Positions 8,382-29,530 of a stretch of 38,399 nucleotides of DNA are shown in pieces. Origin of the DNA: an uncultured Campylobacterales bacterium (GTDB taxonomy: Bacteria; Campylobacterota; Campylobacteria; Campylobacterales; JAADDG01); NCBI GenBank assembly GCA_964590185.1, contig CAZPVZ010000065.1, positions 1 through 38,399 of the forward strand, in the 5' to 3' direction. The position numbers and the translations under genes were made by a program. The stretch's first letter is position 1. The number at the start of each line of letters is the position of its first letter. The notes below the pieces were generated by a model. It was not told the DNA's origin, did not search any database, and saw nothing but the letters and a program-made list of their open reading frames with translations.

Positions 8382-8506
8382 TAAACGTTCCCCCGAAAAC
8401 TGCCGATATCAAAAAAGGTAAAATATAATGTAAATATTATATTTAATAAAACCTAAATAGCAGTTTAGTTAAAATTTATTAAACTTTTTTACAGTAGGAT
8501 TTTATA

Positions 8507-9769: not shown

Positions 9770-9812
9770 CGATATATGAAACGATAAACGATTTTTTTTA
9801 TGAAGAAAAGAG

Positions 9813-11222: not shown

Positions 11223-13518
11223 AAACGAATCTTTAGCCGATTACGAAGCTTTAAACGTAAAAAATCTAACGTTCTTTCTATCTAAAGAGAATTTGACGAT
11301 AACATTTATAATTTTACTTCTTTCCCTACTTTTCGGATATATCTATTACAAACAAAAAACTCCCGTTTATAAATCCTACATCAGCATAGAACTTCCGGAA
11401 AGAGGAGCGGAGAACAGAGGAGCTCAAGGTCTCCAAAACATAATCCAAAACATCACCATGCCGACTCCCATGAACAGAGAGACGGAAATAGACATTATAA
11501 AATCGAAAAGACTCATTTTAAAAACCATAAATATCGTTCCCATGAATATAAGATACTATAAAAAAGGGACTTTTAGAAAGATAGAGCTCGAAAATCCTCC
11601 TTTCGTCGTAAAAAACGCGATCCTAAAAGGGATTGCGAAAGTAAATTTTATCTTAACTCCGATCGACGAAAAGAGATTCAAACTGAAAATAGACGCAAAA
11701 AACCGAAAGGAGATGATATACAAATACGGCCAAAAAATAAAAATGACGAAAGGAAGTTTCGTTATCGAAAAAGCTTTGAAAAATATCCCCAAAGAGAAGT
11801 ACTATTTTACGATTTTGCACGAGCAGAAAGTGGCCAAAGAGATACAAAAAAACCTAAGCGTCACCCCGTCTTCTTTAAGATCCTCTCTTATAATAGTGGA
11901 GTATAGGGACTCAAATCCCCGTCTTTTAAAAGATTTTCTAAATACGCTCGGAAAAGTTTATATAGAAGAGAACATCAAAAAAAGAACCCAAGCCGCCTCG
12001 GCAACGCTCGAGTTCATAACCAAACAGCTTAAAAAGATAAAGAAAAAGTTGGAAAAATCGGCTCAAGCCTTAAAAAATTTCAAAAAAAACAACAACATTT
12101 TAGACATAGCCACAAAAACGAGGGAGCTTATAGACAGATCGGTAGCCATAAAAGAGGAGCTTTCGAGAGCCTATCTCGAACTTCAGGCTTTTAAAAGCGT
12201 AAAAAAGGAGTTTTTAAAAGGAAACTACTCGGCACTCGCCGCGATAGGAAACAGATTTCCCATCCTAAACAATCTGATAGAGCGGCTAAAAAGAGAAGAG
12301 ATCGAAAAAGAGAGCCTTCTTACCGAATACACCCCTTTGCATCCTCAAGTCATAAGAGTCGATAAGAGCATAAAAGAGATTAAAAACTCCATAAAAAAAC
12401 TCATAAAAGGAATAGAGACGGATCTTGAAAAAAGAAAGAACATACTCGAAAAAGAGTACCGAAGCTATGAAAAGGAGATAAAAAGTCTCCCGAAAAAAGA
12501 GCAGATCTACGCCAATTTGGAAAGAGATTACGAAGTTAACGAAAGATTATACTCCTATCTGCTAAACGAAAAATCTCAATTCTCCATAGCCAAAGCCGCG
12601 AAAGTCGCGGGAACGAAGATCATAGATTACGCGGAAATTCCTCTAAAACCGTTTAGCCCCAACAAATCTCTCGTCTTAAGCGTAAGCGCGTTTTTAGGAC
12701 TTTTGCTCTCGATGGCGATCATATTTTTCAAAGAAAAAAACGATCCTAAATTAAAAAGCCCTTCGGAAGTCGGCAAACTAAGCTCTCTTCCGATATACGG
12801 CCTCATACCCTTTATCAAAGACGAAACGGCCTACAATAAAGTTTACGTCTTGGAAAATCCCAATTCCAAAGAGAGCGAAGTATATAGAAAAATAAGAACC
12901 GAACTCGAATTCATTCCTCCCTCAGCAGGATGCAAAACCATTTTGGTAACCTCATACGTTCCGGGAGAGAGAAAAACCGTTACTTCGGCAAATTTGGCGG
13001 CGATATTCGGTTTAGGAAACAAAAAGACGCTTCTTATCTCTTTCGACTTCATCACTCCTCAAATTCACAAAAAATTCTCCATCCCCAACAGATACGGAAC
13101 GGCGGATCTGCTGGAAAAGAGAGTCAAAAATCTCGATAAAGTCATATTCGAACATCCGATATACCAAAATCTTCACATCATCCCTTCAGGAGAGATACCG
13201 AAAAACAGATACGATCTTATCCAATCAAACAAAACGGACGCTCTTTTTAAATATCTAAAAAAAATCTACGACTACATCATAGTTGACACTCCGGCGGTGG
13301 ATATGGTTTCGGACGCCCTTTTGTTAACGAGACACAGCGACATAACCGTATTTACGGTAAGAATGGACTTTTCCAAAAAAAGCCACATAAAAAACGTGGA
13401 CCTTCTCGTTAAAAAATACAAAATAAAAAATGCGGGATTTATAATCAATTCAATAAAAACGAAACACCTAAATTTCGAAACCTACGACAAAGGATATCTT
13501 TACTATGCAAACTACTAA
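11209..13518 (+). CDS. Polysaccharide co-polymerase / BY-kinase (Wzc/GumC-like chain-length determinant with C-terminal tyrosine autokinase)
   Basis: The listed ORF starts at TTG 11164. ATG 11209 (MKSNRNE) with an AGGAA RBS is preferred. It has an N-terminal TM, a long coiled-coil periplasmic region, a second TM, then a P-loop domain (VTSYVPGERKTVTSANLA, DTPAV). The tail is Tyr-rich (YDKGYLYYANY). Confidence 0.85.
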   Translation: MKSNRNESLADYEALNVKNLTFFLSKENLTITFIILLLSLLFGYIYYKQKTPVYKSYISIELPERGAENRGAQGLQNIIQNITMPTPMNRETEIDIIKSKRLILKTINIVPMNIRYYKKGTFRKIELENPPFVVKNAILKGIAKVNFILTPIDEKRFKLKIDAKNRKEMIYKYGQKIKMTKGSFVIEKALKNIPKEKYYFTILHEQKVAKEIQKNLSVTPSSLRSSLIIVEYRDSNPRLLKDFLNTLGKVYIEENIKKRTQAASATLEFITKQLKKIKKKLEKSAQALKNFKKNNNILDIATKTRELIDRSVAIKEELSRAYLELQAFKSVKKEFLKGNYSALAAIGNRFPILNNLIERLKREEIEKESLLTEYTPLHPQVIRVDKSIKEIKNSIKKLIKGIETDLEKRKNILEKEYRSYEKEIKSLPKKEQIYANLERDYEVNERLYSYLLNEKSQFSIAKAAKVAGTKIIDYAEIPLKPFSPNKSLVLSVSAFLGLLLSMAIIFFKEKNDPKLKSPSEVGKLSSLPIYGLIPFIKDETAYNKVYVLENPNSKESEVYRKIRTELEFIPPSAGCKTILVTSYVPGERKTVTSANLAAIFGLGNKKTLLISFDFITPQIHKKFSIPNRYGTADLLEKRVKNLDKVIFEHPIYQNLHIIPSGEIPKNRYDLIQSNKTDALFKYLKKIYDYIIVDTPAVDMVSDALLLTRHSDITVFTVRMDFSKKSHIKNVDLLVKKYKIKNAGFIINSIKTKHLNFETYDKGYLYYANY

Positions 13519-18266: not shown

Positions 18267-21200
18267 TTAAAACATATTTTCGCTTCCGGGAGTTCCGTGA
18301 GCGGTGGCGTTGGATTCTCTCCAATTCTCTTTCAAAGAGTTGTCGCTATTTGGATTTAAAAGCTCCAAAGTGGCTCCGTTTCCGGAAGCGTCGGGCCAAC
18401 TTTCGTCATAAAATACGCTGTCTATCAAAATACCGTCTTTGTTATAGAGTCTGATAGCGTCCGACTTTTTGCCGAATCCGAAAGGAACGTCTCCTATATA
18501 ATTATCCACATCGGGAAAAAGAGAGGAGAATTTCTCGCTATCCTCGCATACGACAAGATAGTCCCTTGCGGGAAGAACCAAACCGTCCGGAAAAATAAAC
18601 TGATGAGAATCGTCGTCGTCTTTTAAAATCCATCCGCTTAAATCCACGTCCTCGTCGGAGTTGTTGTAAAGCTCGACCCAATCTCCCGTGTCGAAATCTT
18701 TAGCCGATTTGTAATTGAATTCGTTTATTACGATTTTAGGAGGATTGGCCAAAGTAAAAGAGGGCGACAAAGTGAGATTCGAATCCAAAACGACTTCTAT
18801 CCTATTTTCGTCGCTATCGTAACCTCCCCAGGAGAGAAGTTTGTATCCCTCGTCCGCAACCGCCTCCAAAACGACCTTTTGACCTTTAAAATATGTGCCG
18901 TTAAAATCGCCGAAAACTCTTATTCCGTCCACCTTTACGCCGCCGAATTTGGAAGAATTTATCTTCAAGGAAACGAGTTCGGCGTCTATCGAAAACTTTT
19001 CTCTAAGCTGTTTTACGATCACTCCGGGTCTTTCGTCGGCAAAATTTCTCATTTTTTCCAACTCGTTATACCAATCGTTTACGTCCGTATAATTGGTATA
19101 ATAACCGTTTACGTCCCCCTCAAGGTGAACCTCTTCCCATCTTGCGTAAGCTCTCGGAATCTCCGGTTCTATAACGGAAGCGAGTTCGTTTAAAATATTT
19201 TTTACTCTATCCGGTTTAAAAGTGATGTTTAGATGCGTCATAAATTTCTCTACGAACTTATCTTTAAAATTTTGATTTTTCAAAAGATTTCTTATTAGGA
19301 AAGTGGACCAAGGAGGATTCGGCCATCCCGGACCGTCGGAAGCGGTGGCGATATCTATCAAATTATACTCCACTCCGGCCACGCTCTCTCTTAAAGCGAA
19401 ACCGAAATCGGTATCGTATAAAATCCATCTCCAAACTCCGCTATCTTTTCTCTCCCTCCAATATCTTATATTGTTTCCCGGCCAATCCCAGTTGCCGAAA
19501 AACATCTCGGCAATTTCATAATCGATATACTCGTCTATATCTATTTTCGAAGCGACATAATTATAAGCGGCGTCGTCGGATAGATCGTGCTCTTTTATAA
19601 AGTCCATAAGCTCGTCGTAAGCCTCTTTATCTCCTTCCAAAACCTTTCTGTTATTTTCGAGAAGATCCACTTTTTTGACTTTGTGATGCTCTTTTAGATA
19701 AGCCTTGTTCGTTTTTTCTCTTATATTGTAAAGTCCCCAAAACTTTCCGTTTAAAAATACCAAAGCCGGCCTGTACGCCTGATGATCGATATCGGTAGTC
19801 TCTTTTATCAAAGTTTGCATAAAGGCGTCTCTTAACATGCTTTTGCCCCAATCGTTTCCGGAGTTTCTTAGTATGAAGTCTTCAAACTCGTCAATCTTTT
19901 CGTCTTTGAAAAGTTTATACTCAAGCTTATCGTTTCCGTACTTACTTTTCATTTTGATCGCAAACGACTTTTGGGGAACGGTTCTTGAACATTTTCCCAT
20001 TATTTCGACGCCCGCGTCGGTTTTAAAACCCAAACTTCCGTTATTCTCGTAAAATTCGACCGTAGCGGCCCTCTCCCAATCCTGAAAATAGTTGGCCATC
20101 TTCGGTCCGAAACATCCCCCGGAAGGAGCTCCGTTTTTCCCGACGGTATAAATGCCTATCTCGTCGTCAAACAAAAATTTGGGATCCACGGTTAAAGAGA
20201 CTACCGGCAAAGTGGAATTTTCGTCTATAAAATAGGTTTTAGTAACGACTTTGCTATCGAAAACCCCGTCTTTCACCCCTATCGCTCTAATAACGGTATT
20301 TTCCTTCAACACTATCGGAGATTCGTAAAGATAGGAATCCTTAGAAGGTATGGAACCGTCAAGAGTATAGTAAATCCTCTCTTGAGGATCTTCGGAAGTT
20401 AAAGCGACGGTAATTTCTCCTTTATAAAAACCTCCCTCTTTATCGAAAACCGGTTCGCCCGCTCTTTCTATCACTTTCATTCCGACTCCGTTGGGATCTT
20501 TCGGAGTGGGAACCATATAGGCAAATTCTCCCTTTTCGTCTCTTCCGTAAGAGATGTCGGCTTCTTGCTCTCTATATCTCAAATAATCCACCACGTCTCC
20601 GTCGGGATCGAACAAAACCGCCTCTTCTCCGCTTGAGGAGAGTTTAAAATCGGTATGAATCTCGTTTTTAACGACGTCTTCATCGTCCGCCCATATAAGC
20701 ATATACCCTTTTGCCGGTATCACCGTTCCGTCGGGTATTCGATACTTTTTCTCCCCTATTTTATCGCTTAGGAAATATCCGCTTAGATTCACGTCCCTAT
20801 CTTCGTTATTGAAAATCTCTATCCAATCGGAGAAATTAAAAAAATCTCCGTCATAGACCGTTTTCGTATTCGCGGCCATAACTTCGGTAATCTTAATATC
20901 CGCCGCGTAATCCCCCAAAAAGCTTTTGGTTATTCTTTTAAATTCCGGAGAATCCAAAAAAGCCTCTATGACGTACTCTCTCGTAGCCCCGTCGGAGAGC
21001 TTTTTCTCCCAAAACTTAAATCCCTCTTCGTCGGGCTCCCTTCCCATGAGAGTTCTGTAAACTACGGTCAAAAACTTCTTATCGTCGTAATTTTTCTCCG
21101 TAAACTCTTTGGAAAAGAAAAAACCTTTGGCTATGTCGCTTGCGCTTTTCCTATGAGTTTTCAGCTCCTTGTTCCAATACTCTATACCGGCCCCGTCGGC

Positions 21201-21707
21201 TCTTCTTCCCAAAACGAGATTATAAAATCTCTCTATGAAAGCCTCTCTTTCGTCATTCTTGTTATGAGCCAAAATTCCGAAATCTTCCTGACAAAGAGAA
21301 GTAAATTCGTCAGAAAGTGCAAAACCGTAAAAAATTTGATCTCTCAATTTTCCGTGATTTTCCAACTCATTAACCCAATAAGAGAGTCCGGTAGGCTCCG
21401 GTTCTCTATTTAATAAAGTAAGATAGGTTCTTCTAACGAACTCTTCGTCGCTAAGATTGGCGTCTTCAAACTCCTTGCTTCTGAAAAAATCCTTAGCGAC
21501 GCTCGTTGCGCTTTTATTTTCGAAAAGCAGCTGTTTTACCCAATAGTTAAAACCCGCACTATCGGGAGTTCTATTTAAAATATTTTCATAAAGCCTCGTA
21601 ACGAAAGCTTCAACCTTATCCGCCGAAGATTTCGCATGAAGATTTAAAACCAAAAAAACGGGTATTATTAGCAAAAAAAGATACCGTCTCAATCTTTCTG
21701 GATACAT
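18267..21707 (-). CDS. Large secreted DUF4214-repeat / lamin-tail-domain / CotH kinase-family protein
   Basis: 1146 aa with a signal peptide. Four DUF4214-type repeats (e.g. FVTRLYENILNRTPDSAGFNYWVKQL, FIERFYNLVLGRRADGAGIEYWNKEL). An N-proximal LTD (ITEVMAAN...DWIEIFNNEDRDVNLSGYFLSD). A chitobiase/Fn3-like segment (IYYTLDGSIPS). A CotH core (LRNSGNDWGKSMLRDAF, VFLNGKFWGLYNIREK). A C-terminal LTD (VINEFNY...DWVELYNNSDEDVDLSGWILKDDD). Confidence 0.8.
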   Translation of the reverse strand: MYPERLRRYLFLLIIPVFLVLNLHAKSSADKVEAFVTRLYENILNRTPDSAGFNYWVKQLLFENKSATSVAKDFFRSKEFEDANLSDEEFVRRTYLTLLNREPEPTGLSYWVNELENHGKLRDQIFYGFALSDEFTSLCQEDFGILAHNKNDEREAFIERFYNLVLGRRADGAGIEYWNKELKTHRKSASDIAKGFFFSKEFTEKNYDDKKFLTVVYRTLMGREPDEEGFKFWEKKLSDGATREYVIEAFLDSPEFKRITKSFLGDYAADIKITEVMAANTKTVYDGDFFNFSDWIEIFNNEDRDVNLSGYFLSDKIGEKKYRIPDGTVIPAKGYMLIWADDEDVVKNEIHTDFKLSSSGEEAVLFDPDGDVVDYLRYREQEADISYGRDEKGEFAYMVPTPKDPNGVGMKVIERAGEPVFDKEGGFYKGEITVALTSEDPQERIYYTLDGSIPSKDSYLYESPIVLKENTVIRAIGVKDGVFDSKVVTKTYFIDENSTLPVVSLTVDPKFLFDDEIGIYTVGKNGAPSGGCFGPKMANYFQDWERAATVEFYENNGSLGFKTDAGVEIMGKCSRTVPQKSFAIKMKSKYGNDKLEYKLFKDEKIDEFEDFILRNSGNDWGKSMLRDAFMQTLIKETTDIDHQAYRPALVFLNGKFWGLYNIREKTNKAYLKEHHKVKKVDLLENNRKVLEGDKEAYDELMDFIKEHDLSDDAAYNYVASKIDIDEYIDYEIAEMFFGNWDWPGNNIRYWRERKDSGVWRWILYDTDFGFALRESVAGVEYNLIDIATASDGPGWPNPPWSTFLIRNLLKNQNFKDKFVEKFMTHLNITFKPDRVKNILNELASVIEPEIPRAYARWEEVHLEGDVNGYYTNYTDVNDWYNELEKMRNFADERPGVIVKQLREKFSIDAELVSLKINSSKFGGVKVDGIRVFGDFNGTYFKGQKVVLEAVADEGYKLLSWGGYDSDENRIEVVLDSNLTLSPSFTLANPPKIVINEFNYKSAKDFDTGDWVELYNNSDEDVDLSGWILKDDDDSHQFIFPDGLVLPARDYLVVCEDSEKFSSLFPDVDNYIGDVPFGFGKKSDAIRLYNKDGILIDSVFYDESWPDASGNGATLELLNPNSDNSLKENWRESNATAHGTPGSENMF

Positions 21708-23318: not shown

Positions 23319-23756
23319 ATGGTTGAGTTTGCGAGCGCTTTTTTGATAGGATCTCTCGTAGCGTACCTTTTATATCTCAACATAAAAAAAATAACCGATA
23401 AATTGGATAGAGCCGAAAATCCTTCTTATAAAATATATTCAACCTTTGCGGCGAAGGTTGAAGAATACGTCGAAGAAATCAGGGATTCTATCGGAAATAA
23501 ATATCTTTTGAAAAACGAAAACGACCAAAAAGAGATAAAAGAGAAACTCTCCGAAATCGTTAGAGAACTGAAATTTTTCGAAACGGTATCGGTAAAAAGA
23601 ATGGAAAAAGAGGAAGCGGAAGAGAAACTTTTCGATATTCTTTCCGAACTCGATTCCATTTTGGAAAAAAATTTCGTAAACGGACGAGAAAAAGCGGACG
23701 AGCTTAGAGAAAAACTTCAAAAAAACTTTGAAGAGATAAAAAATGACGTCGAATAA
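23319..23756 (+). CDS. Hypothetical membrane-anchored coiled-coil protein
   Basis: 145 aa with an N-terminal TM (FASAFLIGSLVAYLLYL) followed by a Glu/Lys-rich helical region. Overlaps the next gene by 14 nt. Confidence 0.5.
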   Translation: MVEFASAFLIGSLVAYLLYLNIKKITDKLDRAENPSYKIYSTFAAKVEEYVEEIRDSIGNKYLLKNENDQKEIKEKLSEIVRELKFFETVSVKRMEKEEAEEKLFDILSELDSILEKNFVNGREKADELREKLQKNFEEIKNDVE

Positions 23757-24498
23757 CGATTCTCAACAAAGAAACAACATAATAGAGTTTTCAACGATAG
23801 AAACTTCCTGCACCTATCTGCCCGACAGAAGAATGAGGATGAGTTACAAATACATAAAAGAAGCCTCCTTCGAACTCAACTCCGACCTGACCGAGAGAGG
23901 ATGGAGAAGATTCGGAAAATATTACTCAAGGCCTTCCTGCGCGGCATGCAGCGAATGTTTGAATTTTAGAATAGACGCTTTCAATTTCAAATTCTCAAAA
24001 TCGGCAAGAAGAGTTCTTAAGAAAAACAAACATACTAAAATGTACGTACAAACCCCCACGACTACCTCTTCCCATATAAAACTACACGAAAAATATCACA
24101 AATTCATGTCCGAAAAAAAAGGATGGAAATACCATCCGATCTCGCCGGCCACTTATAACGAGCTCTATGTCGAAGGACACGGAAATTTCGGGAAAGAGGT
24201 CTTATATTTCATAGACGATAAACTCGTAGGAGTGGATTTTATAGACATATGCCGCGACGGAATCTCCGCGATCTACTTTTTCTACGATCCCGATTACGCA
24301 AAATACTCTTTAGGCAGATATTCGATATATCAGCAGATATTAATGGCGAAGGAGCGCGGATTAAGATGGATATATTTAGGATATTATGTAAAAGAGTGCG
24401 ACTCGCTAAACTATAAAGCCTCCTACAAACCCTCTCAGATACTTATAAACTCCCCATCTTTGGAAGAAGAGCCCATATGGGTGGATATCAAAGTTTAA
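23743..24498 (+). CDS. bpt: Arginyl-tRNA-protein transferase family protein (bacterial Bpt-type Asp/Glu leucyltransferase)
   Basis: 251 aa. It has the N-terminal CTYLPDRRMRMSY motif, a Cys cluster (SRPSCAACSEC) and a C-terminal YLGYYV motif typical of Ate/Bpt enzymes. Confidence 0.75.
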   Translation: MTSNNDSQQRNNIIEFSTIETSCTYLPDRRMRMSYKYIKEASFELNSDLTERGWRRFGKYYSRPSCAACSECLNFRIDAFNFKFSKSARRVLKKNKHTKMYVQTPTTTSSHIKLHEKYHKFMSEKKGWKYHPISPATYNELYVEGHGNFGKEVLYFIDDKLVGVDFIDICRDGISAIYFFYDPDYAKYSLGRYSIYQQILMAKERGLRWIYLGYYVKECDSLNYKASYKPSQILINSPSLEEEPIWVDIKV

Positions 24499-25504
24499 AA
24501 GGCGTTCTAACTTCCAAAACGAAATCGGGAGAATCGCTCGTTAATCCTATACCCAAAGAGACGTTTACGGCTCTGTCTTTACTAAGAGCCCAGCCGGCGC
24601 CTATTTTTAACTGTGCCACGTTCAAAGTGGAATTGGCCACTTTGGTCCTGTTTCCGTCAACGGTGGAATAACTCGAGAGAGTATAATCGTACTGAAACTG
24701 AGCGTTTACCGAAAAATTGTAAGAGATGGCGTATCCGAAACCGGCATTTAAAGTGATAGTATCTCCCGGTTCGACTTTCTCAAGATGTTTTCCGTTAACC
24801 ATCATATCCACGTCTTGATCGATGTTGTAAGAGTACGAAATCCCTCCGAAAACGACGCTCGGATCTATACTTTTTATAAGATTCACTCCGGCTTTTATCG
24901 AATAGTACCCCGTTCCCAAAGGAAGCTCGTTCTTCGGATCTATATCGTAAGGTCCCTGTCCCGTTTTTGATTTAAAGCTCAGATTTAAAATAACCGCGGG
25001 CCTGTTTAAAGTCTCTCTATAAATCTGATCGCTAATCGTAAAAGTAACGTCGCCGACTCCCCACTCGTCAACGAGATCCTCCTTATTCGTCTCGACTTTG
25101 GCTCTCTGGTCGTGTCTATAGATGAGAGGCACCGCAAACTCGGCTTGCAAAAAATCCGCAATTCCGTAACGCAATAAAATCACGTCCCCTATAATCTGTC
25201 TTTTTATGGACTCTATCCCAAACTGCCCCAAAGTCAAAAAAACGGGATCCAAAATGGCGAAACTGTCCAAAAATATCTGATTGGCCGAGTTGTAAGTGAA
25301 CTGAAAATCGTTCTCGAACTCGAAAACGCCTTTTTTTAACAATACGTAATCTCTTTGAAAATGTTCCAAAACTTCCTTAGGCTGGGACTCTTTCAAAACT
25401 TCGGCAAGCTTTTTGTTCACGCCGCCGCCTTGCGACGCTCCCTCAAAAAGAGTCAAAACCAGACAAAGACTCAAAATCCTCTTATGAAAAGGCGCGTTCT
25501 TCAT
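24488..25504 (-). CDS. Outer-membrane beta-barrel protein (transporter / MetA-pathway-of-phenol-degradation-like family), last gene of the fibre-like cluster
   Basis: 338 aa with a signal peptide (ILSLCLVLTLFEGASQG). A short charged helical segment is followed by alternating beta-strand patterns to the C-terminus. Sits 13 nt downstream of the C39 gene. Confidence 0.65.
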   Translation of the reverse strand: MKNAPFHKRILSLCLVLTLFEGASQGGGVNKKLAEVLKESQPKEVLEHFQRDYVLLKKGVFEFENDFQFTYNSANQIFLDSFAILDPVFLTLGQFGIESIKRQIIGDVILLRYGIADFLQAEFAVPLIYRHDQRAKVETNKEDLVDEWGVGDVTFTISDQIYRETLNRPAVILNLSFKSKTGQGPYDIDPKNELPLGTGYYSIKAGVNLIKSIDPSVVFGGISYSYNIDQDVDMMVNGKHLEKVEPGDTITLNAGFGYAISYNFSVNAQFQYDYTLSSYSTVDGNRTKVANSTLNVAQLKIGAGWALSKDRAVNVSLGIGLTSDSPDFVLEVRTPFKL

Positions 25505-25517
25505 AAAAATTCCTCTT

Positions 25518-26216
25518 TTAATGATCTAAAAAACTTCTAAAAGACGGCAAATTATATTCGAAAATATAATTTCTAAGCATGGTATTTCCGATCCACTTCA
25601 TATCTTCTTCGGTAAGAGCCAGCCTATTGACCCCTCTTCTTTTCCGCTCTATAATCAAAGCTATATGTTTATACCATATTTTATCAAATTCGTCTCTCGG
25701 AAGTATAGTGTTTCCAAGAGCAGGATCGGCTATAAAAACTCTTCCTTTATACAATCCTCTAAAAACTACGAAATGTTTATAGTTTCCTATCGTAATCGTA
25801 ACTATGGCGGGCTTTCCCATCTCCGCCAAAGAATCCAAATCGAGCTTGTATCCGTTGACTTTATATCCCAAAGCGTTGGAAAGCTTTTTTATATCGAGAA
25901 GCGAAAAACCTTTGTTTTGGATTATTTTCATTTTATTTCCGAATCTGAAAAGACCGTTTATGACTTGATCTTCGGTTAAAGGATCGTTCAAATAGTAGTT
26001 ATATATCGTCGCCGTTGCGGCCGAACCGCAACTAAAATCCATCTTCTGCCTCACGAGATGTTTAGAATTGACGCTTTTAGAAGTTTCAACATGAGGATAG
26101 ATTTTGAAAGAGCCGAATTTCAATCCTACTATAATGGGAACCTTAGAATACTCTTTAGACGAAAGAGTTAAGATTAAAAACGGCAATAAAAAAATAATTT
26201 TTACTATTTTATTCAT
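25518..26216 (-). CDS. Periplasmic (signal-peptide-bearing) C39-family cysteine peptidase
   Basis: ATG 26216 (MNKIVKIIFLLPFLILTLSS) is preferred over the listed GTG 26228. C39 catalytic motifs are intact: Gln/Cys in QKMDFSCGSAATATIYNYY, His in YKHFVVFRG, Asp in FIADPALG. No ABC-transporter domain is attached or adjacent. Confidence 0.8.
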   Translation of the reverse strand: MNKIVKIIFLLPFLILTLSSKEYSKVPIIVGLKFGSFKIYPHVETSKSVNSKHLVRQKMDFSCGSAATATIYNYYLNDPLTEDQVINGLFRFGNKMKIIQNKGFSLLDIKKLSNALGYKVNGYKLDLDSLAEMGKPAIVTITIGNYKHFVVFRGLYKGRVFIADPALGNTILPRDEFDKIWYKHIALIIERKRRGVNRLALTEEDMKWIGNTMLRNYIFEYNLPSFRSFLDH

Positions 26217-26231
26217 ACGCCCTACCACTTC

Positions 26232-26413: not shown

Positions 26414-26548
26414 TGAACATAGCTTATACAAACACAAAAACTCCTTTCTCCAGCTACCATCTTTTAGGAGTTTGGCGTAAAGTTATGTTCCTACCCCTTT
26501 TACGGCATTCAGCAACGACTTAACCGGTCGTTTTGCTGAATGTTTTTT
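26414..26548 (+). ncRNA. Candidate ~135-nt sRNA (cis-antisense to the operon intergenic region, with trans match to the start region of the major repeat gene)
   Basis: Bounded by the promoter at 26379-26407 and the intrinsic terminator at 26506-26548. It contains TCCAGCTACCATCTTT (26449-26464), identical to 28695-28710. That makes it complementary to the mRNA segment AAAGAUGGUAGCUGGA spanning the AUG of the 557-aa protein gene. Confidence 0.35.
26506..26548 (+). terminator. Rho-independent terminator oriented on the + strand
   Basis: Arms CATTCAGCAACGAC and GTCGTTTTGCTGAATG form 10 bp, a 2-nt bulge and 4 bp around a 7-nt loop, followed by T6 (26543-26548). On the minus strand the same hairpin lacks a U-tail. 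Confidence 0.6.
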
Positions 26549-26958
26549 CAAAACGGCTTCAAAGCGGATTGAAGCTGATTGTTTATATTTATTCCTCCCG
26601 TTATTTTCGAATTCATAACGAATATTATATTAATCGGCACATTTACGGCTGAATTTACCGCATTGATAGGCACGAACGCATCTTTTTGAGCCAGACCGCT
26701 AACCATAACCGAATCAACTAAATTCGTAGGCAGATCGGCCGAAAATTTAAAAGCGTTGGAACTTATCGTATGAGTCACCGGCAAAGTATTAAACGCCAGC
26801 GAGCTTTTTATCGCATCATCCATCACTTGATAGTTTAAATTGAATCCCTGTGCCGAAATATCCGAAAGCTCTTCGTCTTTTACAACTTCTATTCCGCCGG
26901 CCGTCGAATATACGGACAATATAGCCGATATAAAGAGTAAATAGAGCGCTTTTTTCAT
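26548..26958 (-). CDS. Small secreted protein carrying one copy of the fibre-repeat core (candidate minor subunit/nucleator)
   Basis: 136 aa with signal peptide MKKALYLLFISAILSVYSTAGG. It shares the motif EELSDISAQGF with the 557-aa protein. SGLAQKDAFVPINAVNSAVNVPINII aligns to the repeat core NGxAQxxASxLxIxNxAxSAVNIGQNI. C-terminal residue is Phe. Confidence 0.75.
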   Translation of the reverse strand: MKKALYLLFISAILSVYSTAGGIEVVKDEELSDISAQGFNLNYQVMDDAIKSSLAFNTLPVTHTISSNAFKFSADLPTNLVDSVMVSGLAQKDAFVPINAVNSAVNVPINIIFVMNSKITGGININNQLQSALKPF

Positions 26959-27008
26959 CTTTTTTCCTTTAAAACATCGTTTTAACGCAAGTTAAAACAA
27001 TGTCTCAA

Positions 27009-27032
27009 GAAAGAGGAGAAGCCTCCTCTCCC
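27009..27032 (-). terminator. Stable hairpin immediately after the major repeat gene stop (partial terminator/attenuator or mRNA stabiliser)
   Basis: Minus-strand RNA GGGAGAGGAG-GCUU-CUCCUCUUUC forms a 10-bp stem including two G.U pairs. It starts right after the TAA and is followed by UUGAG... A second perfect 8-bp palindrome (GTTTTAAC-TTGC-GTTAAAAC) lies at 26979-26998. Confidence 0.45.
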
Positions 27033-28706
27033 TTAAAAATTGGTAGCGGTTTGAACCGCGGTTTGAGAAATACTCCAATTGGTTGCGGTTTGGATATTCG
27101 CTATATTCAACCCGTAGTTAACCGCACTTCCGGCGGTATTGCCCAAAATAAGGCTGGACGTTCCGGTTTGAGCGTCTATTAATTGAACTTTTCCGTTATT
27201 ATTGGCTTGTTTTTCGATATTGCCGTTATTTACTACGTCTTGATTATGAGTTCCGCAATTCTCCGCGGTTTGCGTATTGGTTTGAGTCAATACGGAAGCG
27301 GTTGTCGGATTGCCGCTAACGTCCAAAATATTGGCCGCGCTGTTAACCGCGGAATCGGCGCTATTGTGAGAAGCCAAAGAAGCCAAATCTTTTTGGGCGT
27401 TATTGATTTGAACCGCTCCGTTATTGTTTTGGCCGTTATCGGCGCTTCCGTTTACGATTTTTTGAGGAGCGGTGTATTTGTTAACCGCGTTTTGGGTGTT
27501 GGCTTGATCTATGAAATTAAGATTTCCGGCGTTTTCTATCGAAGCTATGTTTTGACCTATGTTAACCGCGGAGTTTGCGGTATTGGTAAAAGCCATGCCG
27601 GAAACTCCGTTTTGAGCTCCGTTTACTTGAACCGCCGCATTGTTGTTGTTGGCGTTGGAAGCTTTCTTAGCGGTTGAAACATATTGATACTCGTACTCTC
27701 CGTTACCGTTGAAAGCTTGTTGAGTATTTGTTTGAGAAACTTTTATATTTCCGGTTACGTCCTTAGCCTGCATGATATTTTGACCCACGTTCTCAGCGGA
27801 ATAAGAAGTATTTGTGATGGAGAGTCCGTTGGCCTCGTCCTGAGCGTTACCGTTAGCCTGTACGGAACCGCTATTGTTTTGTTGCTGTAAAGTATTCTCT
27901 CCGTTTTTAACGGTTTGCTCGAGCATCGTTTTGGAGTGAGTGGCTTTTTGATCGTTTTCCTGCCACAATTTAGGATTCTCCGTATCGGTCGCATACAAGA
28001 TGTTCTGTCCGATGTTTTTAGCCGAAGAAGCGGCATTATCGATAGACAACGCGCTCGCTTTGCTTTGAGCGTCGCCGTTTAATTGAACGGCCGCGTTATT
28101 GTTGCTTTGCTCGTTAACGGTATCTTCGCTCGCTATATGCTGAATTAGAGCGTTAGTATTGGACGCCTGTTGCGAATTTTTTTGTCTTAAGACCAGATTT
28201 TTGGATTTATCGACCGTCAAAATATTTTGTCCCTCGTTGATTCCGGATTTCGCCGCGTTAACCATAACCGCCGCGGAAGCTTCGCTTTGAGCCTTATCGC
28301 TTAGATTGACGGCTCCGTTATCGTTAACCTGCTTATGCAAAGGACCTTTGTTCGTAGTCGTCTGAACGGCGTTTTTGCCGTTTTTCGCAATTTGGCAATT
28401 CTTTTGAGTAAGTTCTCCGCTTCCGTTTACCAAATTGGCAACGTTTTGATTGGCGTTTATAGCCGAAGAGGAACTGTTTACGATCTCCATTCCTTGAGCC
28501 TCTTTTTGAGAGGTTCCTCTAAGCTCCAAAGCTTCGTTGTTGTTAAGCTGATCGTTAGCCGTACCTCCGTTGTAAATATTTTGAATACCTTGCGCGCTAA
28601 CGTCCCCCAACTCGTCTTCGGATAAAGTGCTCACGCCCGCAATCGCCGCCGATGAAACAACCATAGCAACGAGAGCGGAAATCATGATCCGTTTTCCAGC
28701 TACCAT
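27033..28706 (-). CDS. Secreted Asn/Gln/Ala/Ser/Gly-rich protein with seven imperfect 73-77-aa repeats (candidate major fibre/amyloid-like subunit)
   Basis: 557 aa with signal peptide MVAGKRIMISALVAMVVSSAAIAG, an AGGAG RBS and the post-signal motif LSEDELGDVSAQG. Repeat cores start at aa 55, 128, 202, 277, 354, 427 and 502. Only 2 Cys. The C-terminus is TATNF. Confidence 0.85.
   Translation of the reverse strand: MVAGKRIMISALVAMVVSSAAIAGVSTLSEDELGDVSAQGIQNIYNGGTANDQLNNNEALELRGTSQKEAQGMEIVNSSSSAINANQNVANLVNGSGELTQKNCQIAKNGKNAVQTTTNKGPLHKQVNDNGAVNLSDKAQSEASAAVMVNAAKSGINEGQNILTVDKSKNLVLRQKNSQQASNTNALIQHIASEDTVNEQSNNNAAVQLNGDAQSKASALSIDNAASSAKNIGQNILYATDTENPKLWQENDQKATHSKTMLEQTVKNGENTLQQQNNSGSVQANGNAQDEANGLSITNTSYSAENVGQNIMQAKDVTGNIKVSQTNTQQAFNGNGEYEYQYVSTAKKASNANNNNAAVQVNGAQNGVSGMAFTNTANSAVNIGQNIASIENAGNLNFIDQANTQNAVNKYTAPQKIVNGSADNGQNNNGAVQINNAQKDLASLASHNSADSAVNSAANILDVSGNPTTASVLTQTNTQTAENCGTHNQDVVNNGNIEKQANNNGKVQLIDAQTGTSSLILGNTAGSAVNYGLNIANIQTATNWSISQTAVQTATNF
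27036..28544 (-). repeat. Seven tandem coding repeats (protein-level, diverged at DNA level)
   Basis: Aligned cores:
- NNNEALELRGTSQKEAQGMEIVNSSSSAINANQNVANL
- NDNGAVNLSDKAQSEASAAVMVNAAKSGINEGQNILTV
- NNNAAVQLNGDAQSKASALSIDNAASSAKNIGQNILYA
- NNSGSVQANGNAQDEANGLSITNTSYSAENVGQNIMQA
- NNNAAVQVNGAQNGVSGMAFTNTANSAVNIGQNIASI
- NNNGAVQINNAQKDLASLASHNSADSAVNSAANILDV
- NNNGKVQLIDAQTGTSSLILGNTAGSAVNYGLNIANI. Confidence 0.85.
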
Positions 28707-28882: not shown

Positions 28883-29530
28883 TTATTCTATAATATAACC
28901 CACGCCTTTTATGTTTTTGATAACCTTATAACCTATTTTTTTATGAATATCCCTGATATGGCTCGCTAAAGTCTTATAGTTTTTTATATCCTCGTCCCAA
29001 ACGTATTCGCTTAGCGTCTCTCTTCCGACTATCCTGCCTCTATTCTTAACCAAAAAATAGAAAATTTTATGCTGTTTGTTAGTTAATTTAACTATCCTTT
29101 CCCCGCAATAAAGTTCCCTCTTGGCCAAATTGTACTTAATATTCGAGCTTAAAGATATCTCCTTATTCGAGTGAGTGCATCTTAAAACGTTTTTTATCCT
29201 CACCATCAACTCTTCTATATCGAACGGCTTTTTTATATAGTCATAACTTCCCAAATAAAAACATCTCTTAATATAACTAACGTCCTTCTTATTGCTTATA
29301 ACGATGGAAGGCGTATTTATGGCGTTTGCCTGCATATATTCGAGCATTTCGAAAATATCGCTCTTTTTTATATCCAGATCCAAAATCAAAATATCGAAAT
29401 CGTGCAAATTTTCATGTAAAAGCATCTCATCCATATCTTCAAACTTCTTCACATAAAAATCTTGCATCTCAAAGTAGAAAGGTATCCTTCTTTTATAAAA
29501 AACGTCGTCCGATAAAAGAGCGATTTTCAT
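28883..29530 (-). CDS. OmpR/PhoB-family response regulator (receiver + winged-helix), no cognate kinase adjacent
   Basis: 215 aa. Receiver residues are present (LLSDD acidic pair, ILILDLD phospho-Asp, IVIS, DYIKKPF Lys). The C-terminal winged helix has LTNKQHKIFYFLV, REtLSEYVW and IKNIKGVGYIIE. The gene is visibly more AT-rich than its neighbours. Confidence 0.85.
   Translation of the reverse strand: MKIALLSDDVFYKRRIPFYFEMQDFYVKKFEDMDEMLLHENLHDFDILILDLDIKKSDIFEMLEYMQANAINTPSIVISNKKDVSYIKRCFYLGSYDYIKKPFDIEELMVRIKNVLRCTHSNKEISLSSNIKYNLAKRELYCGERIVKLTNKQHKIFYFLVKNRGRIVGRETLSEYVWDEDIKNYKTLASHIRDIHKKIGYKVIKNIKGVGYIIE

What the first reader, a model, noticed from the sequence alone, without database searches (positions are those of the whole stretch)
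27036..28544. Seven-fold 73-77-aa Asn/Gln-ladder repeat architecture with a single-repeat paralogue next door
Repeat cores start at aa 55, 128, 202, 277, 354, 427 and 502, giving spacings of 73, 74, 75, 77, 73 and 75 aa. Each has a strongly conserved ~38-aa core, NNN[GA]AVQ[LV]NG-AQ-x3-[AS]-x-[LM]-x-I-x-N-x-[AS]-x-SA-x-N-[IV]-GQNI. A more variable Gln/Thr/Asn-rich ~35-aa linker follows each core.

The protein has almost no charged clusters and only two Cys (aa 104 and 484, both in linkers). It ends in an aromatic residue (TNF), and the 136-aa paralogue ends in KPF.

Conserved Asn/Gln/Gly/Ala at fixed spacing is the hallmark of stacked beta-solenoid or amyloid repeats such as CsgA and FapC. The DNA-level repeats are diverged, since no long identical nucleotide stretches are visible. 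That argues for an old, selected repeat structure rather than a recent expansion.
Basis: seen in the sequence. Interest (0 to 1): 0.75.

Follow-up and report, generated by a model that had tools for sequence, protein, structure and literature searches.

The report
Repeat fibre subunit with Fap-like exporter
A secreted protein built from seven Asn/Gln-rich beta repeats sits in a conserved four-gene cassette with a one-repeat paralogue, a periplasmic C39 protease and an outer-membrane channel related to the Pseudomonas amyloid exporter FapF, so it is most likely the main subunit of an undescribed amyloid-like surface fibre.

Summary
ORF 27033-28706 (minus strand, 557 aa) has seven 73-77-aa repeats at exactly the stated positions. 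They are far beyond chance at protein level and diverged at DNA level. The "linker" is not a linker: it carries a second conserved block (Q-x-N-x-Q-x-A-x-N) and is confidently modelled as beta strand.

AlphaFold2 gives an all-beta model from residue 40 (pLDDT 90, pTM 0.88) with no real match among solved structures.

The decisive evidence is context. Downstream on the same strand lie the 136-aa single-repeat paralogue, a C39 cysteine peptidase (FapD/FilB-like) and a FapF homologue (E 5e-27 to the FapF crystal structure). This cassette recurs in Campylobacterota, a Syntrophorhabdaceae MAG and other MAGs.

Both repeat proteins carry, right after a signal-peptide-like N-terminus, L-S-x-x-E-L-x-x-V-S-A-Q-G. 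This is a near-canonical double-glycine leader, and some relatives have a true GG.

The repeat is not a FapC/FapB, curli or FilA repeat by HMM, regex or profile comparison. Only 95 representatives in 1.84 billion proteins match it.

Verdict: a new cargo family on a Fap-type export pathway, so a new variant of a known kind. Fibre or amyloid formation is inferred, not shown.

The parts
28883..29530 (-). OmpR/PhoB-type response regulator (215 aa) directly upstream. No histidine kinase is adjacent. It is the likely transcriptional regulator of the cassette.
   Evidence: Pfam Response_reg plus Trans_reg_C. The gene sits immediately upstream of the repeat gene in L012-L014; in L015 and L016 it lies 2.6-3.4 kb upstream.
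27033..28706 (-). BIG: a 557-aa secreted seven-repeat Asn/Gln-rich protein, the proposed major fibre subunit.
   Evidence: ORF. No Pfam or NCBIfam family matches. AF2 pLDDT 90.1 and pTM 0.88, all-beta from aa 40. The family has only 95 representatives among 1.84e9 proteins.
28638..28706 (-). Sec-type signal peptide of BIG (aa 1-23, predicted cleavage AIA|GV).
   Evidence: K5/R6 followed by a hydrophobic core, with maximum 12-aa hydropathy 2.6 at aa 7. The region is disordered or helical in the AF2 model. The cleavage site is inferred; no signal-peptide predictor was available.
28587..28625 (-). Double-glycine-type leader motif of BIG, L28-S-E-D-E-L-G-D-V-S-A-Q39|G40. Cleavage by the C39 peptidase is predicted before G40.
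   Evidence: The motif L-S-[DE]-x-[DE]-L-x-x-V-S-A-[QRK]-G is matched in 44 of 45 apparently full-length family members, two of them with G in place of [QRK] (P0031 ISGG, P0086 SAG). The confident AF2 fold starts at aa 40.
27036..28544 (-). Seven repeats: R1 28326-28544, R2 28104-28325, R3 27879-28103, R4 27648-27878, R5 27429-27647, R6 27204-27428, R7 27036-27203 (truncated after Q-T-A-T-N-F).
   Evidence: Near-invariant positions over 583 family repeats are N1, N2, Q13, N23, S27, N30, N34, Q48, N50, Q52 and A54.
27003..27038 (-). Stable RNA hairpin starting at the BIG stop codon, a probable attenuator or terminator between the major-subunit gene and the downstream genes.
   Evidence: dG -23 kcal/mol, z -4.6, 0 of 200 shuffles fold as well. 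A GC-rich hairpin of unrelated sequence occupies the same position in 7 of 8 related loci.
26548..26958 (-). SMALL: a 136-aa secreted single-repeat paralogue, the proposed minor subunit (nucleator, cap or anchor). Its leader motif is aa 26-38 (26845-26883) and its repeat is aa 79-128 (26575-26724).
   Evidence: Repeat HMM hit E 5e-6. The family of 20 sequences has invariant SAQGF and NAVNSAVNVPINI. It lies next to a BIG gene in L001, L002, L012-L016 and L020. AF2 on the protein alone is not confident (pLDDT 46).
25518..26228 (-). Periplasmic C39 cysteine peptidase (236 aa), FapD/FilB-like, with its own N-terminal hydrophobic signal or anchor.
   Evidence: Pfam Peptidase_C39 6e-22. NCBIfam FilB 2e-49 and FapD 2e-34, both below the equivalog cut-offs. 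The catalytic Q..DFSCGSA Cys, HFVV His and DP motifs are conserved with Aeromonas FapD.
24488..25504 (-). FapF-family outer-membrane beta-barrel (338 aa), the proposed secretion channel. [quoted passage not shown]
   Evidence: phmmer against the FapF crystal structures 5o65/5o67/5o68 gives E 5e-27 over aa 54-336. NCBIfam FapF 7.5e-40 (model positions 98-418 only) and FilC 5e-39. N-terminal comparison.

Best explanation
BIG (27033-28706) is the major subunit of an extracellular, amyloid-like beta-solenoid fibre. SMALL is its one-repeat minor subunit. A two-protein export module related to the Pseudomonas Fap amyloid pathway makes the fibre.

Proposed sequence of events:
1. Both proteins cross the inner membrane by Sec (inferred from their signal-peptide-like N-termini).
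2. In the periplasm they stay unfolded and carry a double-glycine-type propeptide, L-S-x-x-E-L-x-x-V-S-A-Q|G.
3. The periplasmic C39 peptidase recognises this propeptide and probably removes it (inferred from motif, gene linkage and intact catalytic residues).
4. The unfolded chain passes through the FapF-like barrel (inferred from homology).
5. Outside the cell each ~74-aa repeat folds into one multi-strand layer. Layers stack in register, so that the roughly eleven near-invariant Asn/Gln/Ser/Ala positions form ladders. The fold is modelled by AF2; the one-repeat-per-layer geometry is inferred.
6. Seven-layer monomers then add end to end. SMALL, a single layer with two invariant prolines that is not confidently modelled on its own (pLDDT 46, a shallow 20-sequence alignment), acts as nucleator, cap or cell anchor.

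A hairpin after the BIG stop codon would give an excess of BIG over the downstream genes. The adjacent orphan response regulator probably controls expression.
For: - Repeats are real, and their conservation pattern is ladder-like.
- The AF2 model is confident and all-beta from G40. Weak fold neighbours are all parallel beta-helices or solenoids, including CsgA.
- The barrel is a clear FapF homologue. The C39 peptidase is FapD/FilB-like with intact catalytic residues.
- All four proteins start with hydrophobic signal-like N-termini.
- The cassette BIG-SMALL-C39-barrel is complete in L001, L002, L012, L013, L016 and L020. L019 has a differently sized small protein in that slot. L014 and L015 are cut by the contig end.
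- The leader motif is matched in 44 of 45 full-length members, two of them with G in place of [QRK]. Canonical GG also occurs in small accessory proteins. The same kind of motif follows the signal peptide of Aeromonas FapE, Acinetobacter FilA and cargo-position proteins of Cupriavidus and Croceicoccus Fap-like loci.
- Published work: FapD's catalytic Cys is needed for FapC secretion, its substrate is unknown, FapE loses its N-terminus, and FapF passes unfolded substrates (PMC5557850, PMC6173800, PMC12459412).
- Repeat number varies from 2 to 19 among relatives, as in curli.
- A post-BIG hairpin is conserved in position.
Against: - There is no experimental evidence of secretion, cleavage or fibrillation for any member.
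- The repeat is not detectably homologous to FapC/FapB, CsgA or FilA.
- The -2/-1 positions of the leader are A-Q, not G-G. Cleavage at such a site has not been shown for any C39 enzyme.
- The barrel lacks the coiled coil that is essential in Pseudomonas FapF.
- A confident monomer model is equally compatible with a non-polymerising beta-solenoid.
- Model coordinates could not be inspected, so the layer geometry is not verified.
- One relative (L003/L004) has the repeat gene without an adjacent C39 or barrel gene.
Confidence: 0.6

Rival explanations
1. BIG is a monomeric, non-polymerising surface or secreted beta-solenoid protein (adhesin, matrix-binding or ice/mineral-binding type). It uses the FapF-like pore and C39 processing only for export. 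SMALL is an export adaptor or anchor rather than a fibre component.
For: AF2 folds the monomer confidently without a partner. Weak fold neighbours include adhesin passenger domains such as Ag43 and pertactin, and an ice-binding protein. There are no fibrillation data.
Against: - There is no significant structural or sequence match to any adhesin family.
- Nothing other than repeats is present: no tip or binding domain.
- A one-repeat paralogue is conserved alongside BIG, as with CsgB/FapB-type partners.
- Repeat number drifts freely from 2 to 19.
- The only characterised cargo of FapF channels is amyloid (PMC5557850).
Confidence: 0.22
2. It is simply a very diverged orthologue of the canonical Fap system. 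BIG would be FapC and SMALL would be FapB or FapE, with the repeat sequence drifted beyond recognition.
For: - FapD-like and FapF-like genes are present in the same order as fapD..fapF.
- Composition is N/Q/G/A-rich, and a small repeat paralogue sits next to a large one.
- The Croceicoccus FapB-position protein shows weak similarity to both the FapB model (E 0.015) and this repeat HMM (E 0.008), hinting at a possible bridge.
Against: - The NCBIfam FapC, FapB and FapE models detect Aeromonas controls but give nothing for BIG or SMALL at E up to 1.
- The Fap repeat regex gives 0 hits here against 3 and 2 in the controls.
- hhalign of the family against 20 FapC sequences gives 11 % probability, covering the signal peptide only.
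- The unit is 74 aa against 39 aa, and there are 7 repeats against an almost invariant 3 (PMC12822426).
- BIG carries a leader motif that Aeromonas FapC lacks.
- The barrel has no coiled coil, and no FapA or FapE homologue is present.
Confidence: 0.1
3. The cassette is a Fil-type 'pilus' system like Acinetobacter filABCDEF, with BIG playing the FilA role.
For: The C39 peptidase scores higher against the FilB model than against FapD (168 vs 119 bits). The barrel scores about the same against FilC as against FapF. FilA has a similar post-signal motif, DDAALSAATGQ|DG.
Against: - BIG and SMALL do not match the FilA model or DUF6160, whereas the Acinetobacter control does.
- No FilD, FilE or FilF counterparts are in the cassette.
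- Both hits are far below the model cut-offs (475 and 630 bits).
- The Fil system itself is uncharacterised, so this label would explain little.
Confidence: 0.05
4. The proteins are bacteriocin- or toxin-like precursors, since C39 peptidases and double-glycine leaders are typical of bacteriocin export.
For: The leader resembles LSxxELxxIxGG, and a C39 peptidase is adjacent.
Against: - The cassette has no ABC transporter, and the peptidase is a stand-alone protein with an N-terminal signal-like segment.
- The cargo proteins start with signal-peptide-like N-termini and are 136-1364 aa of repeats.
- No immunity gene is evident.
Confidence: 0.03

Closest known systems
Fap system of Pseudomonas (fapABCDEF: FapC/FapB amyloid subunits, FapD C39 peptidase, FapE, FapF trimeric outer-membrane channel)
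   Same: - The outer-membrane barrel is homologous to FapF (E 5e-27 to PDB 5o65).
- There is a stand-alone C39 peptidase with an N-terminal signal-like segment and the same catalytic motifs as FapD.
- A large repeat subunit is paired with a small paralogue.
- The repeats are Asn/Gln-rich and imperfect.
- The cargo proteins carry signal-peptide-like N-termini.
- FapE of Aeromonas has a comparable post-signal motif, ELAHLRGR.
   Different: - The repeat is unrelated by sequence: HMM, regex and hhalign are all negative.
- The unit is 74 aa rather than about 39 aa.
- There are 7 repeats here (2-19 in the family) against an almost invariant 3.
- The major subunit itself carries the double-glycine-type leader.
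- There is no FapA or FapE homologue.
- The barrel lacks the N-terminal coiled coil.
- The hosts are Campylobacterota and Syntrophorhabdaceae rather than mainly Pseudomonadota.
FapD-FapF-only loci noted in additional phyla (Rouse et al. 2018 review, PMC6173800, Fig. S1 and supplementary tables)
   Same: The fapD-like and fapF-like genes are co-localised without recognisable FapB/C. This window is very probably one of that class.
   Different: That survey did not identify or describe the cargo. Here the cargo family, its repeat, its leader motif and its single-repeat partner are defined.
Curli (CsgA/CsgB with CsgG/E/F)
   Same: - It has a beta-solenoid of imperfect Asn/Gln-ladder repeats.
- Repeat number is variable across taxa.
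- A smaller paralogue acts as the candidate nucleator.
- CsgA R15.5 (8c50) appears among the weak fold neighbours.
   Different: The curli motif N-x-psi-x-psi-x-Q...G... is absent. The repeat is 74 aa rather than about 22 aa. The export machinery is entirely different: the cassette encodes a FapF-like barrel and a C39 peptidase instead of curli-type export genes.
Acinetobacter baumannii FilABCDEF putative pilus system
   Same: The C39 peptidase (FilB) and barrel (FilC) are about as close as FapD and FapF. FilA has a similar leader after its signal peptide.
   Different: FilA (DUF6160) is not a tandem-repeat protein of this type and does not match. FilD, FilE and FilF are absent here.
Double-glycine leader peptides cut by C39 domains of peptidase-containing ABC transporters (PCATs)
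   Same: The leader consensus L(-12) S(-11) E(-8) L(-7) hydrophobic(-4) is reproduced exactly. Some relatives have GG at -2/-1.
   Different: The leader follows a signal-peptide-like N-terminus instead of being the N-terminus. The peptidase has its own signal-like N-terminus and is not fused to an ABC transporter. The usual -2/-1 pair is A-[QRK] with G at +1.

Membership tests
Fap functional-amyloid system | FapF-type 12-stranded outer-membrane channel encoded with the subunits | tested here: met
   ORF 24488-25504 matches the FapF crystal-structure sequences at E 5e-27 over aa 54-336. The NCBIfam FapF model gives 7.5e-40, but 137 bits is far below the equivalog cut-off of 700. It is a homologue, not an equivalog.
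Fap functional-amyloid system | N-terminal periplasmic coiled coil of FapF (needed for trimerisation and secretion in Pseudomonas) | tested here: not met
   The FapF model match covers positions 98-418 only. The pre-barrel segment is about 30 aa, against about 100 aa with heptad-like repeats in Aeromonas FapF.
Fap functional-amyloid system | Periplasmic C39 peptidase FapD with catalytic Cys and His | tested here: met
   Pfam Peptidase_C39 6e-22. NCBIfam FapD 2e-34, below the cut-off of 330. The Cys, His and Asp motifs align with Aeromonas FapD. The N-terminus is hydrophobic.
Fap functional-amyloid system | FapB/FapC imperfect repeat (HMM; minimal regex X15-G-X4-N-X3-G-X6-N-X7 of Dueholm 2013) | tested here: not met
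   The regex gives 0 hits in BIG and SMALL, against 3 in Aeromonas FapC and 2 in FapB. The NCBIfam FapC and FapB models give no hit at E up to 1, while the controls score 1e-50 and 8e-22. hhalign of the family against FapC gives 11 % probability.
Fap functional-amyloid system | Three repeats in FapC and FapB (almost universal, PMC12822426) | tested here: not met
   There are seven repeats in BIG and one in SMALL, and 2-19 in the family.
Fap functional-amyloid system | FapE (and usually FapA) present in the operon | tested here: not met
   The cassette has only four genes. Neither BIG nor SMALL matches the FapE model, which does detect Aeromonas FapE at 2e-12. The other ORFs of the window were not scanned against the FapA or FapE models.
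Functional amyloid (operational definition) | Cross-beta fibrils: ThT/Congo-red binding, SDS or formic-acid resistance, fibres by EM | not testable with these tools
   Only a monomer AF2 model is available. Coordinates and multimer modelling were not available.
Curli CsgA/CsgB | Curlin repeat (N/S-x-psi-x-psi-x-Q-x-G-x3-N/S-x-psi-x-psi-x-Q) | tested here: not met
   The regex gives 0 hits, and Pfam gives no hit. Fold search places CsgA 8c50 only at E 2.7 and TM 0.06.
Acinetobacter Fil system | FilA (DUF6160) major subunit plus FilD, FilE and FilF | tested here: not met
   The NCBIfam FilA and Pfam DUF6160 models detect the A. baumannii control but not BIG or SMALL. No genes of FilD/E/F size lie in the cassette. 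The FilB and FilC models are hit only below their cut-offs.
Double-glycine (C39) leader peptides | Consensus L-S-x-x-E-L-x-x-I-x-G-G immediately before the cleavage site | tested here: inconclusive
   Positions -12, -11, -8, -7 and -4 are met in BIG and SMALL. Positions -2/-1 are A-Q, followed by G. A relative (P0031) and accessory proteins in L019 and L020 have true GG. Cleavage itself is untested.
Right-handed parallel beta-helix adhesins / autotransporter passengers | Structural superposition on a three-sided beta-helix (pertactin, Ag43, tailspikes) | tested here: not met
   The best PDB hit has E 0.066 and TM 0.07. The best viral-model hits have TM at most 0.18. The protein has no autotransporter barrel.

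The most novel reading that the evidence does not exclude
This would be a third, independent class of Gram-negative functional amyloid, after curli and Fap. Its subunit has its own fold, with one ~74-aa multi-strand layer per repeat. A Sec signal followed by a double-glycine-type propeptide would be the general address tag that periplasmic FapD-type C39 peptidases read to load unfolded cargo into FapF-type pores. That rule would also explain FapE and FilA, and would identify the long-sought FapD substrate motif.
Probability: 0.4. Interest if true: 0.8.

Novelty: new variant of a known kind. Interest (0 to 1): 0.66.

Why it matters
- Only two dedicated Gram-negative amyloid export pathways are understood: curli and Fap. 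For Fap, the substrate and recognition sequence of the essential protease FapD are still unknown (PMC5557850, PMC6173800).
- This cassette is a stripped-down version of four genes, in which both cargo proteins carry an almost textbook C39 leader. That makes 'what does the periplasmic C39 cut, and is that the export signal?' directly testable.
- It adds an unannotated cargo family, with no Pfam or NCBIfam model, to the FapD/FapF-only loci previously seen in other phyla.
- The fold is confidently predicted but structurally unmatched.
- It points to amyloid-like matrix fibres in Campylobacterota related to Nitratiruptor and Nitrosophilus, and in syntrophic Desulfobacterota.
- One host, Nitrosophilus alvini, has a complete genome (1.8-Mb contig).

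Tried and rejected
- Pfam and NCBIfam scans of BIG and SMALL returned nothing useful. The only hit was YscB at E 0.024, which is noise.
- phmmer of BIG against all PDB sequences at E up to 10 found no hit.
- Foldseek of the BIG model against PDB and BFVD found only weak beta-helix hits with TM at most 0.18. I rejected these as evidence of membership in any solved fold.
- AF2 of SMALL alone gave pLDDT 46, which is uninformative about its fold. It was therefore not fold-searched.
- The Pfam copy lacks PF27129, the tag carried by FapC homologues, so the Pfam negative says nothing about FapC. I used the NCBIfam FapC, FapB and FapE models with Aeromonas positive controls instead.
- I searched the window for the extra small proteins seen in relatives (the 'SFGDGG' and 'IILWDE' families) by tblastn. 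They are absent.
- The genome-contig scan used strict peptide patterns from SMALL and found only 5 loci. It missed Nitrosophilus alvini and the Syntrophorhabdaceae variant, so it is a lower bound and not a census.
- Literature searches for the Fil system and for Campylobacterota amyloids found nothing relevant.
- The plus-strand ORF 27183-27677 (164 aa), antisense to BIG, was set aside as a probable by-product of the repeat composition. No test was run on it.
- I could not inspect model coordinates. The one-repeat-per-layer geometry therefore remains an inference from the conservation pattern.
Full report
**1. The observation**

The finding lies in ORF 27033..28706 on the minus strand, 557 aa. 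A motif scan and a MAFFT alignment place the repeat starts at aa 55, 128, 202, 277, 354, 427 and 502.

The repeats are far beyond chance for this Asn/Gln/Ala/Ser-rich composition. Twenty of 21 pairwise local-alignment scores between units (median 95) exceed the highest score (67) among 2100 pairs from shuffled sequence.

At DNA level the cores are only 52-63 % identical, and Tandem Repeats Finder sees no array. The two Cys (aa 104 and 484), the C-terminal TNF and the KPF end of the 136-aa neighbour are all correct.

One detail is wrong. The '35-aa variable linker' contains a second conserved block, hydrophobic-x-Q-x-N-x-Q-x-A-x-N. Over 583 repeats collected from the family, the near-invariant positions are N1, N2, Q13, N23, S27, N30, N34, Q48, N50, Q52 and A54, each 90-100 % conserved.

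**2. Structure**

AlphaFold2 was run with a 33-sequence family alignment. It gives mean pLDDT 90.1 and pTM 0.88. Residues 1-38 are unstructured. Everything from residue 40 onward is beta strand, about five to six strands per repeat, with no disordered linkers.

Foldseek finds no significant match among solved structures (best E 0.066, TM about 0.07). The weak hits are almost all parallel beta-helices or solenoids: P22 tailspike, Ag43, pertactin, an ice-binding protein and curli CsgA 8c50. Predicted viral structures give the same picture, with TM at most 0.18.

I could not read the coordinates. The conserved Asn/Gln positions recur once per 74-aa unit, and the two halves of a unit differ. From this I infer one multi-strand layer per repeat, stacked in register. 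That geometry is an inference, not a result.

**3. The neighbourhood is the key evidence**

On the same strand, downstream of the repeat gene, there are three genes.
- **A 136-aa protein (26548-26958).** It has the same N-terminal motif and one copy of the repeat (repeat HMM E 5e-6 at aa 79-128).
- **A 236-aa C39 cysteine peptidase (25518-26228).** It has a hydrophobic N-terminus. Pfam gives 6e-22; the NCBIfam FilB and FapD models give 2e-49 and 2e-34, both below their curated cut-offs. Its catalytic Cys, His and Asp motifs align with Aeromonas FapD.
- **A 338-aa outer-membrane barrel (24488-25504).** It matches the sequences of the FapF crystal structures at E 5e-27 over nearly its whole length.

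Upstream sits an OmpR-type response regulator. FapD and FapF are the dedicated protease and channel of the Pseudomonas functional-amyloid pathway. FapF passes unfolded subunits, and FapD's catalytic Cys is required for FapC secretion (PMC5557850, PMC6173800).

**4. Conservation of the cassette**

The repeat protein has only 33 word-indexed homologues, all unnamed or 'hypothetical'. They come from an Epsilonproteobacteria MAG, Nitrosophilus alvini, a Syntrophorhabdaceae MAG and others. An exhaustive profile search with the seven repeats found 95 representatives at E up to 1e-3 among 1.84 billion proteins, with 1-19 matched units per protein.

The order repeat gene, small paralogue, C39, barrel is complete in:
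- N. alvini (L001);
- the Syntrophorhabdaceae MAG (L002, two modules sharing one barrel);
- two Campylobacterota MAGs (L012, L013) and a Nitratiruptor MAG (L016);
- a 33 %-identical relative from another MAG (L020).

L019 (29 % identical) keeps the order, with a differently sized small protein in that slot. In L014 and L015 the contig ends inside or before the C39 gene.

The response regulator sits immediately upstream in L012-L014. In L015 and L016 it lies 2.6-3.4 kb upstream. One relative (L003/L004) has the repeat gene without the export genes nearby.

**5. A leader motif**

Right after the signal-peptide-like N-terminus, BIG has L28-S-E-D-E-L-G-D-V-S-A-Q39-G40 and SMALL has V-K-D-E-E-L-S-D-I-S-A-Q-G. 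The pattern L-S-[DE]-x-[DE]-L-x-x-V-S-A-[QRK]-G is matched in 44 of 45 apparently full-length family members (two with G in place of [QRK]), and is invariant in the small-protein family.

It reproduces the double-glycine leader consensus L-S-x-x-E-L-x-x-I-x-G-G at positions -12, -11, -8, -7 and -4. The -2/-1 pair is A-[QRK], followed by Gly. One member (P0031...ISGG) has true GG at -2/-1. So do small accessory proteins in L019 and L020, for example LDELDEITGG. The confident AF2 fold begins exactly at G40.

Motifs of the same type follow the signal peptide in:
- Aeromonas FapE (GELAHLRGR);
- Acinetobacter FilA (DDAALSAATGQ);
- the FapB-position and FapE-position proteins of the Croceicoccus and Cupriavidus Fap-like loci.

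The literature states that FapD's substrate is unknown, that Fap proteins lack canonical C39 sites, and that FapE alone loses its N-terminus (PMC5557850). My inference is that this motif is the recognition and cleavage site of the periplasmic C39 peptidase, and possibly the export tag. It is not demonstrated.

**6. What it is not**

The NCBIfam models for FapC, FapB, FapE and FilA recognise the Aeromonas and Acinetobacter controls, at 1e-50, 8e-22, 2e-12 and 2e-97. They give nothing for BIG or SMALL at E up to 1.
- The minimal Fap repeat regex of Dueholm 2013 (PMC3792158) hits FapC three times and FapB twice, but never BIG or SMALL. A curli-type motif is also absent.
- The family repeat HMM does not detect FapB, FapC, FapE or FilA.
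- A profile-profile comparison with 20 FapC sequences aligns only the signal peptides, at 11 % probability.
- The barrel lacks FapF's long N-terminal coiled coil.
- No FapA or FapE homologue is in the cassette.
- Canonical FapB and FapC almost invariably have three repeats (PMC12822426). Here there are seven, and 2-19 in the family.

The export module is therefore homologous to Fap (and equally to Fil). The cargo is a separate family with no curated model.

**7. Mechanism proposed**

The best explanation, at about 0.6 confidence, runs as follows.
- Both proteins are exported across the inner membrane by Sec.
- The C39 peptidase recognises and cuts the leader in the periplasm.
- The unfolded chain passes through the FapF-like pore.
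- Outside the cell it folds into stacked repeat layers with Asn/Gln ladders, and monomers polymerise end to end.
- SMALL acts as nucleator, cap or anchor. It is a single layer with two invariant prolines and is not confidently modelled on its own (pLDDT 46 from a shallow 20-sequence alignment).

A strong hairpin begins at the BIG stop codon (dG -23 kcal/mol, z -4.6). A GC-rich hairpin of unrelated sequence sits at the same place in 7 of 8 related loci. This suggests attenuation that keeps the major subunit in excess.

What is shown and what is inferred:
- Shown: the repeats, the model, the homologies, the synteny and the motif conservation.
- Inferred: cleavage, route of export and polymerisation.

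The rivals are a non-polymerising surface solenoid (0.22), an unrecognisably diverged true Fap system (0.10), a Fil-type system (0.05) and bacteriocin-like cargo (0.03).

**8. Novelty**

Rouse et al. 2018 (PMC6173800) already noted co-localised fapD and fapF homologues in five additional phyla, and listed orders encoding only FapD and FapF (supplement). They did not identify the cargo. I found no paper describing this repeat family, its leader, or Fap-like systems in Campylobacterota.

I rate it a new variant of a known kind: a known export principle with a new cargo family and a clearer candidate signal. Interest is moderate to high, because it makes the open question of the FapD substrate testable and adds a structurally unmatched amyloid-like repeat. 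It is tempered by the complete absence of experimental data.

Noticed in passing
window 27003-27038 (-); L012, L013, L014, L001, L016, L002 and L019 just after the repeat gene: A very stable hairpin starts at the stop codon of the repeat gene (dG -23, z -4.6). GC-rich hairpins of unrelated sequence occupy the same position in 7 of 8 related loci. This looks like a conserved attenuator or terminator, or an mRNA-stabilising element, after the major-subunit gene.
   Followed up: partly
L001 7205-7549 and 10763-11047; L002 5583-5945: A conserved small protein family ('..SFGDGG..Y.VVDN..YV[YF]TL..DG[FL]VN[IV]KV..') accompanies the repeat genes in Nitrosophilus alvini and the Syntrophorhabdaceae MAG; two of the three copies have a signal-like N-terminus. 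It is absent from this window (tblastn). It may be a periplasmic chaperone, analogous to FapA.
   Followed up: partly
L002 7596-7916; L019 4399-4731; L020 7057-7305: A second accessory family of 82-110 aa has a hydrophobic N-terminus, then a double-glycine-type leader (canonical GG in L019 and L020, e.g. LDELDEITGG and LSAEELDAVEAGG; A-R in L002) and a shared 'IILWDE' motif. It is absent from the window. Its function is unknown.
   Followed up: no
proteins P0110-P0137 (e.g. P0112, P0126); L017 2629-3801 and 3949-4521: A distant sister family of about 350-420 aa has the leader 'LSDxxLDxITAG' and two repeat-like units (GSAQSxxxAxNxVNAAGSAVANGVNI) flanking a central region with a CxxGSC motif. 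The C-terminus is 'QSNVIxHSR'. Giant multi-module versions also exist (P0099, P0103). No Pfam or NCBIfam model matches. The context was seen only on a short contig.
   Followed up: partly
L009 (Cupriavidus metallidurans CH34 megaplasmid) 4348-9966; L010 (Croceicoccus marinus plasmid) 5546-9966; L005 (Vibrio plasmid) 8851-13019: Other FapF/C39 loci carry yet other cargo: Gly-rich or 'DNS'-repeat proteins plus small proteins with RGG or GR leaders. The FapD/FapF module therefore seems to serve several unrelated repeat cargos.
   Followed up: partly
window 18267-21707 (-): A 1146-aa protein combines a CotH kinase domain, four DUF4214 repeats, two lamin-tail domains and Fn3-associated or chitobiase-C domains. 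This is an unusual large, probably extracellular protein a few kb from the cassette.
   Followed up: no
window 11164-13518 (+): A Wzz/GNVR/AAA_31 polysaccharide co-polymerase tyrosine-kinase-type protein. It suggests an exopolysaccharide locus in the same region, consistent with a matrix or biofilm gene neighbourhood.
   Followed up: no
window 27183-27677 (+): A 164-aa ORF lies antisense inside the repeat gene. It is probably a by-product of the repeat composition rather than a gene.
   Followed up: no
window 24488-24498: The 3' ends of the FapF-like gene (minus strand) and the arginyl-tRNA-protein transferase gene (23743-24498, plus strand) overlap convergently by 11 bp.
   Followed up: no
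L006 7877-8716 (A. baumannii VB1190 record CP040048.1): The FilB C39 peptidase gene is split into two ORFs in this record, by a frameshift or a sequencing error. PLSDB labels the record a 'plasmid', but at 658 kb and carrying housekeeping genes it looks like a chromosome fragment.
   Followed up: no
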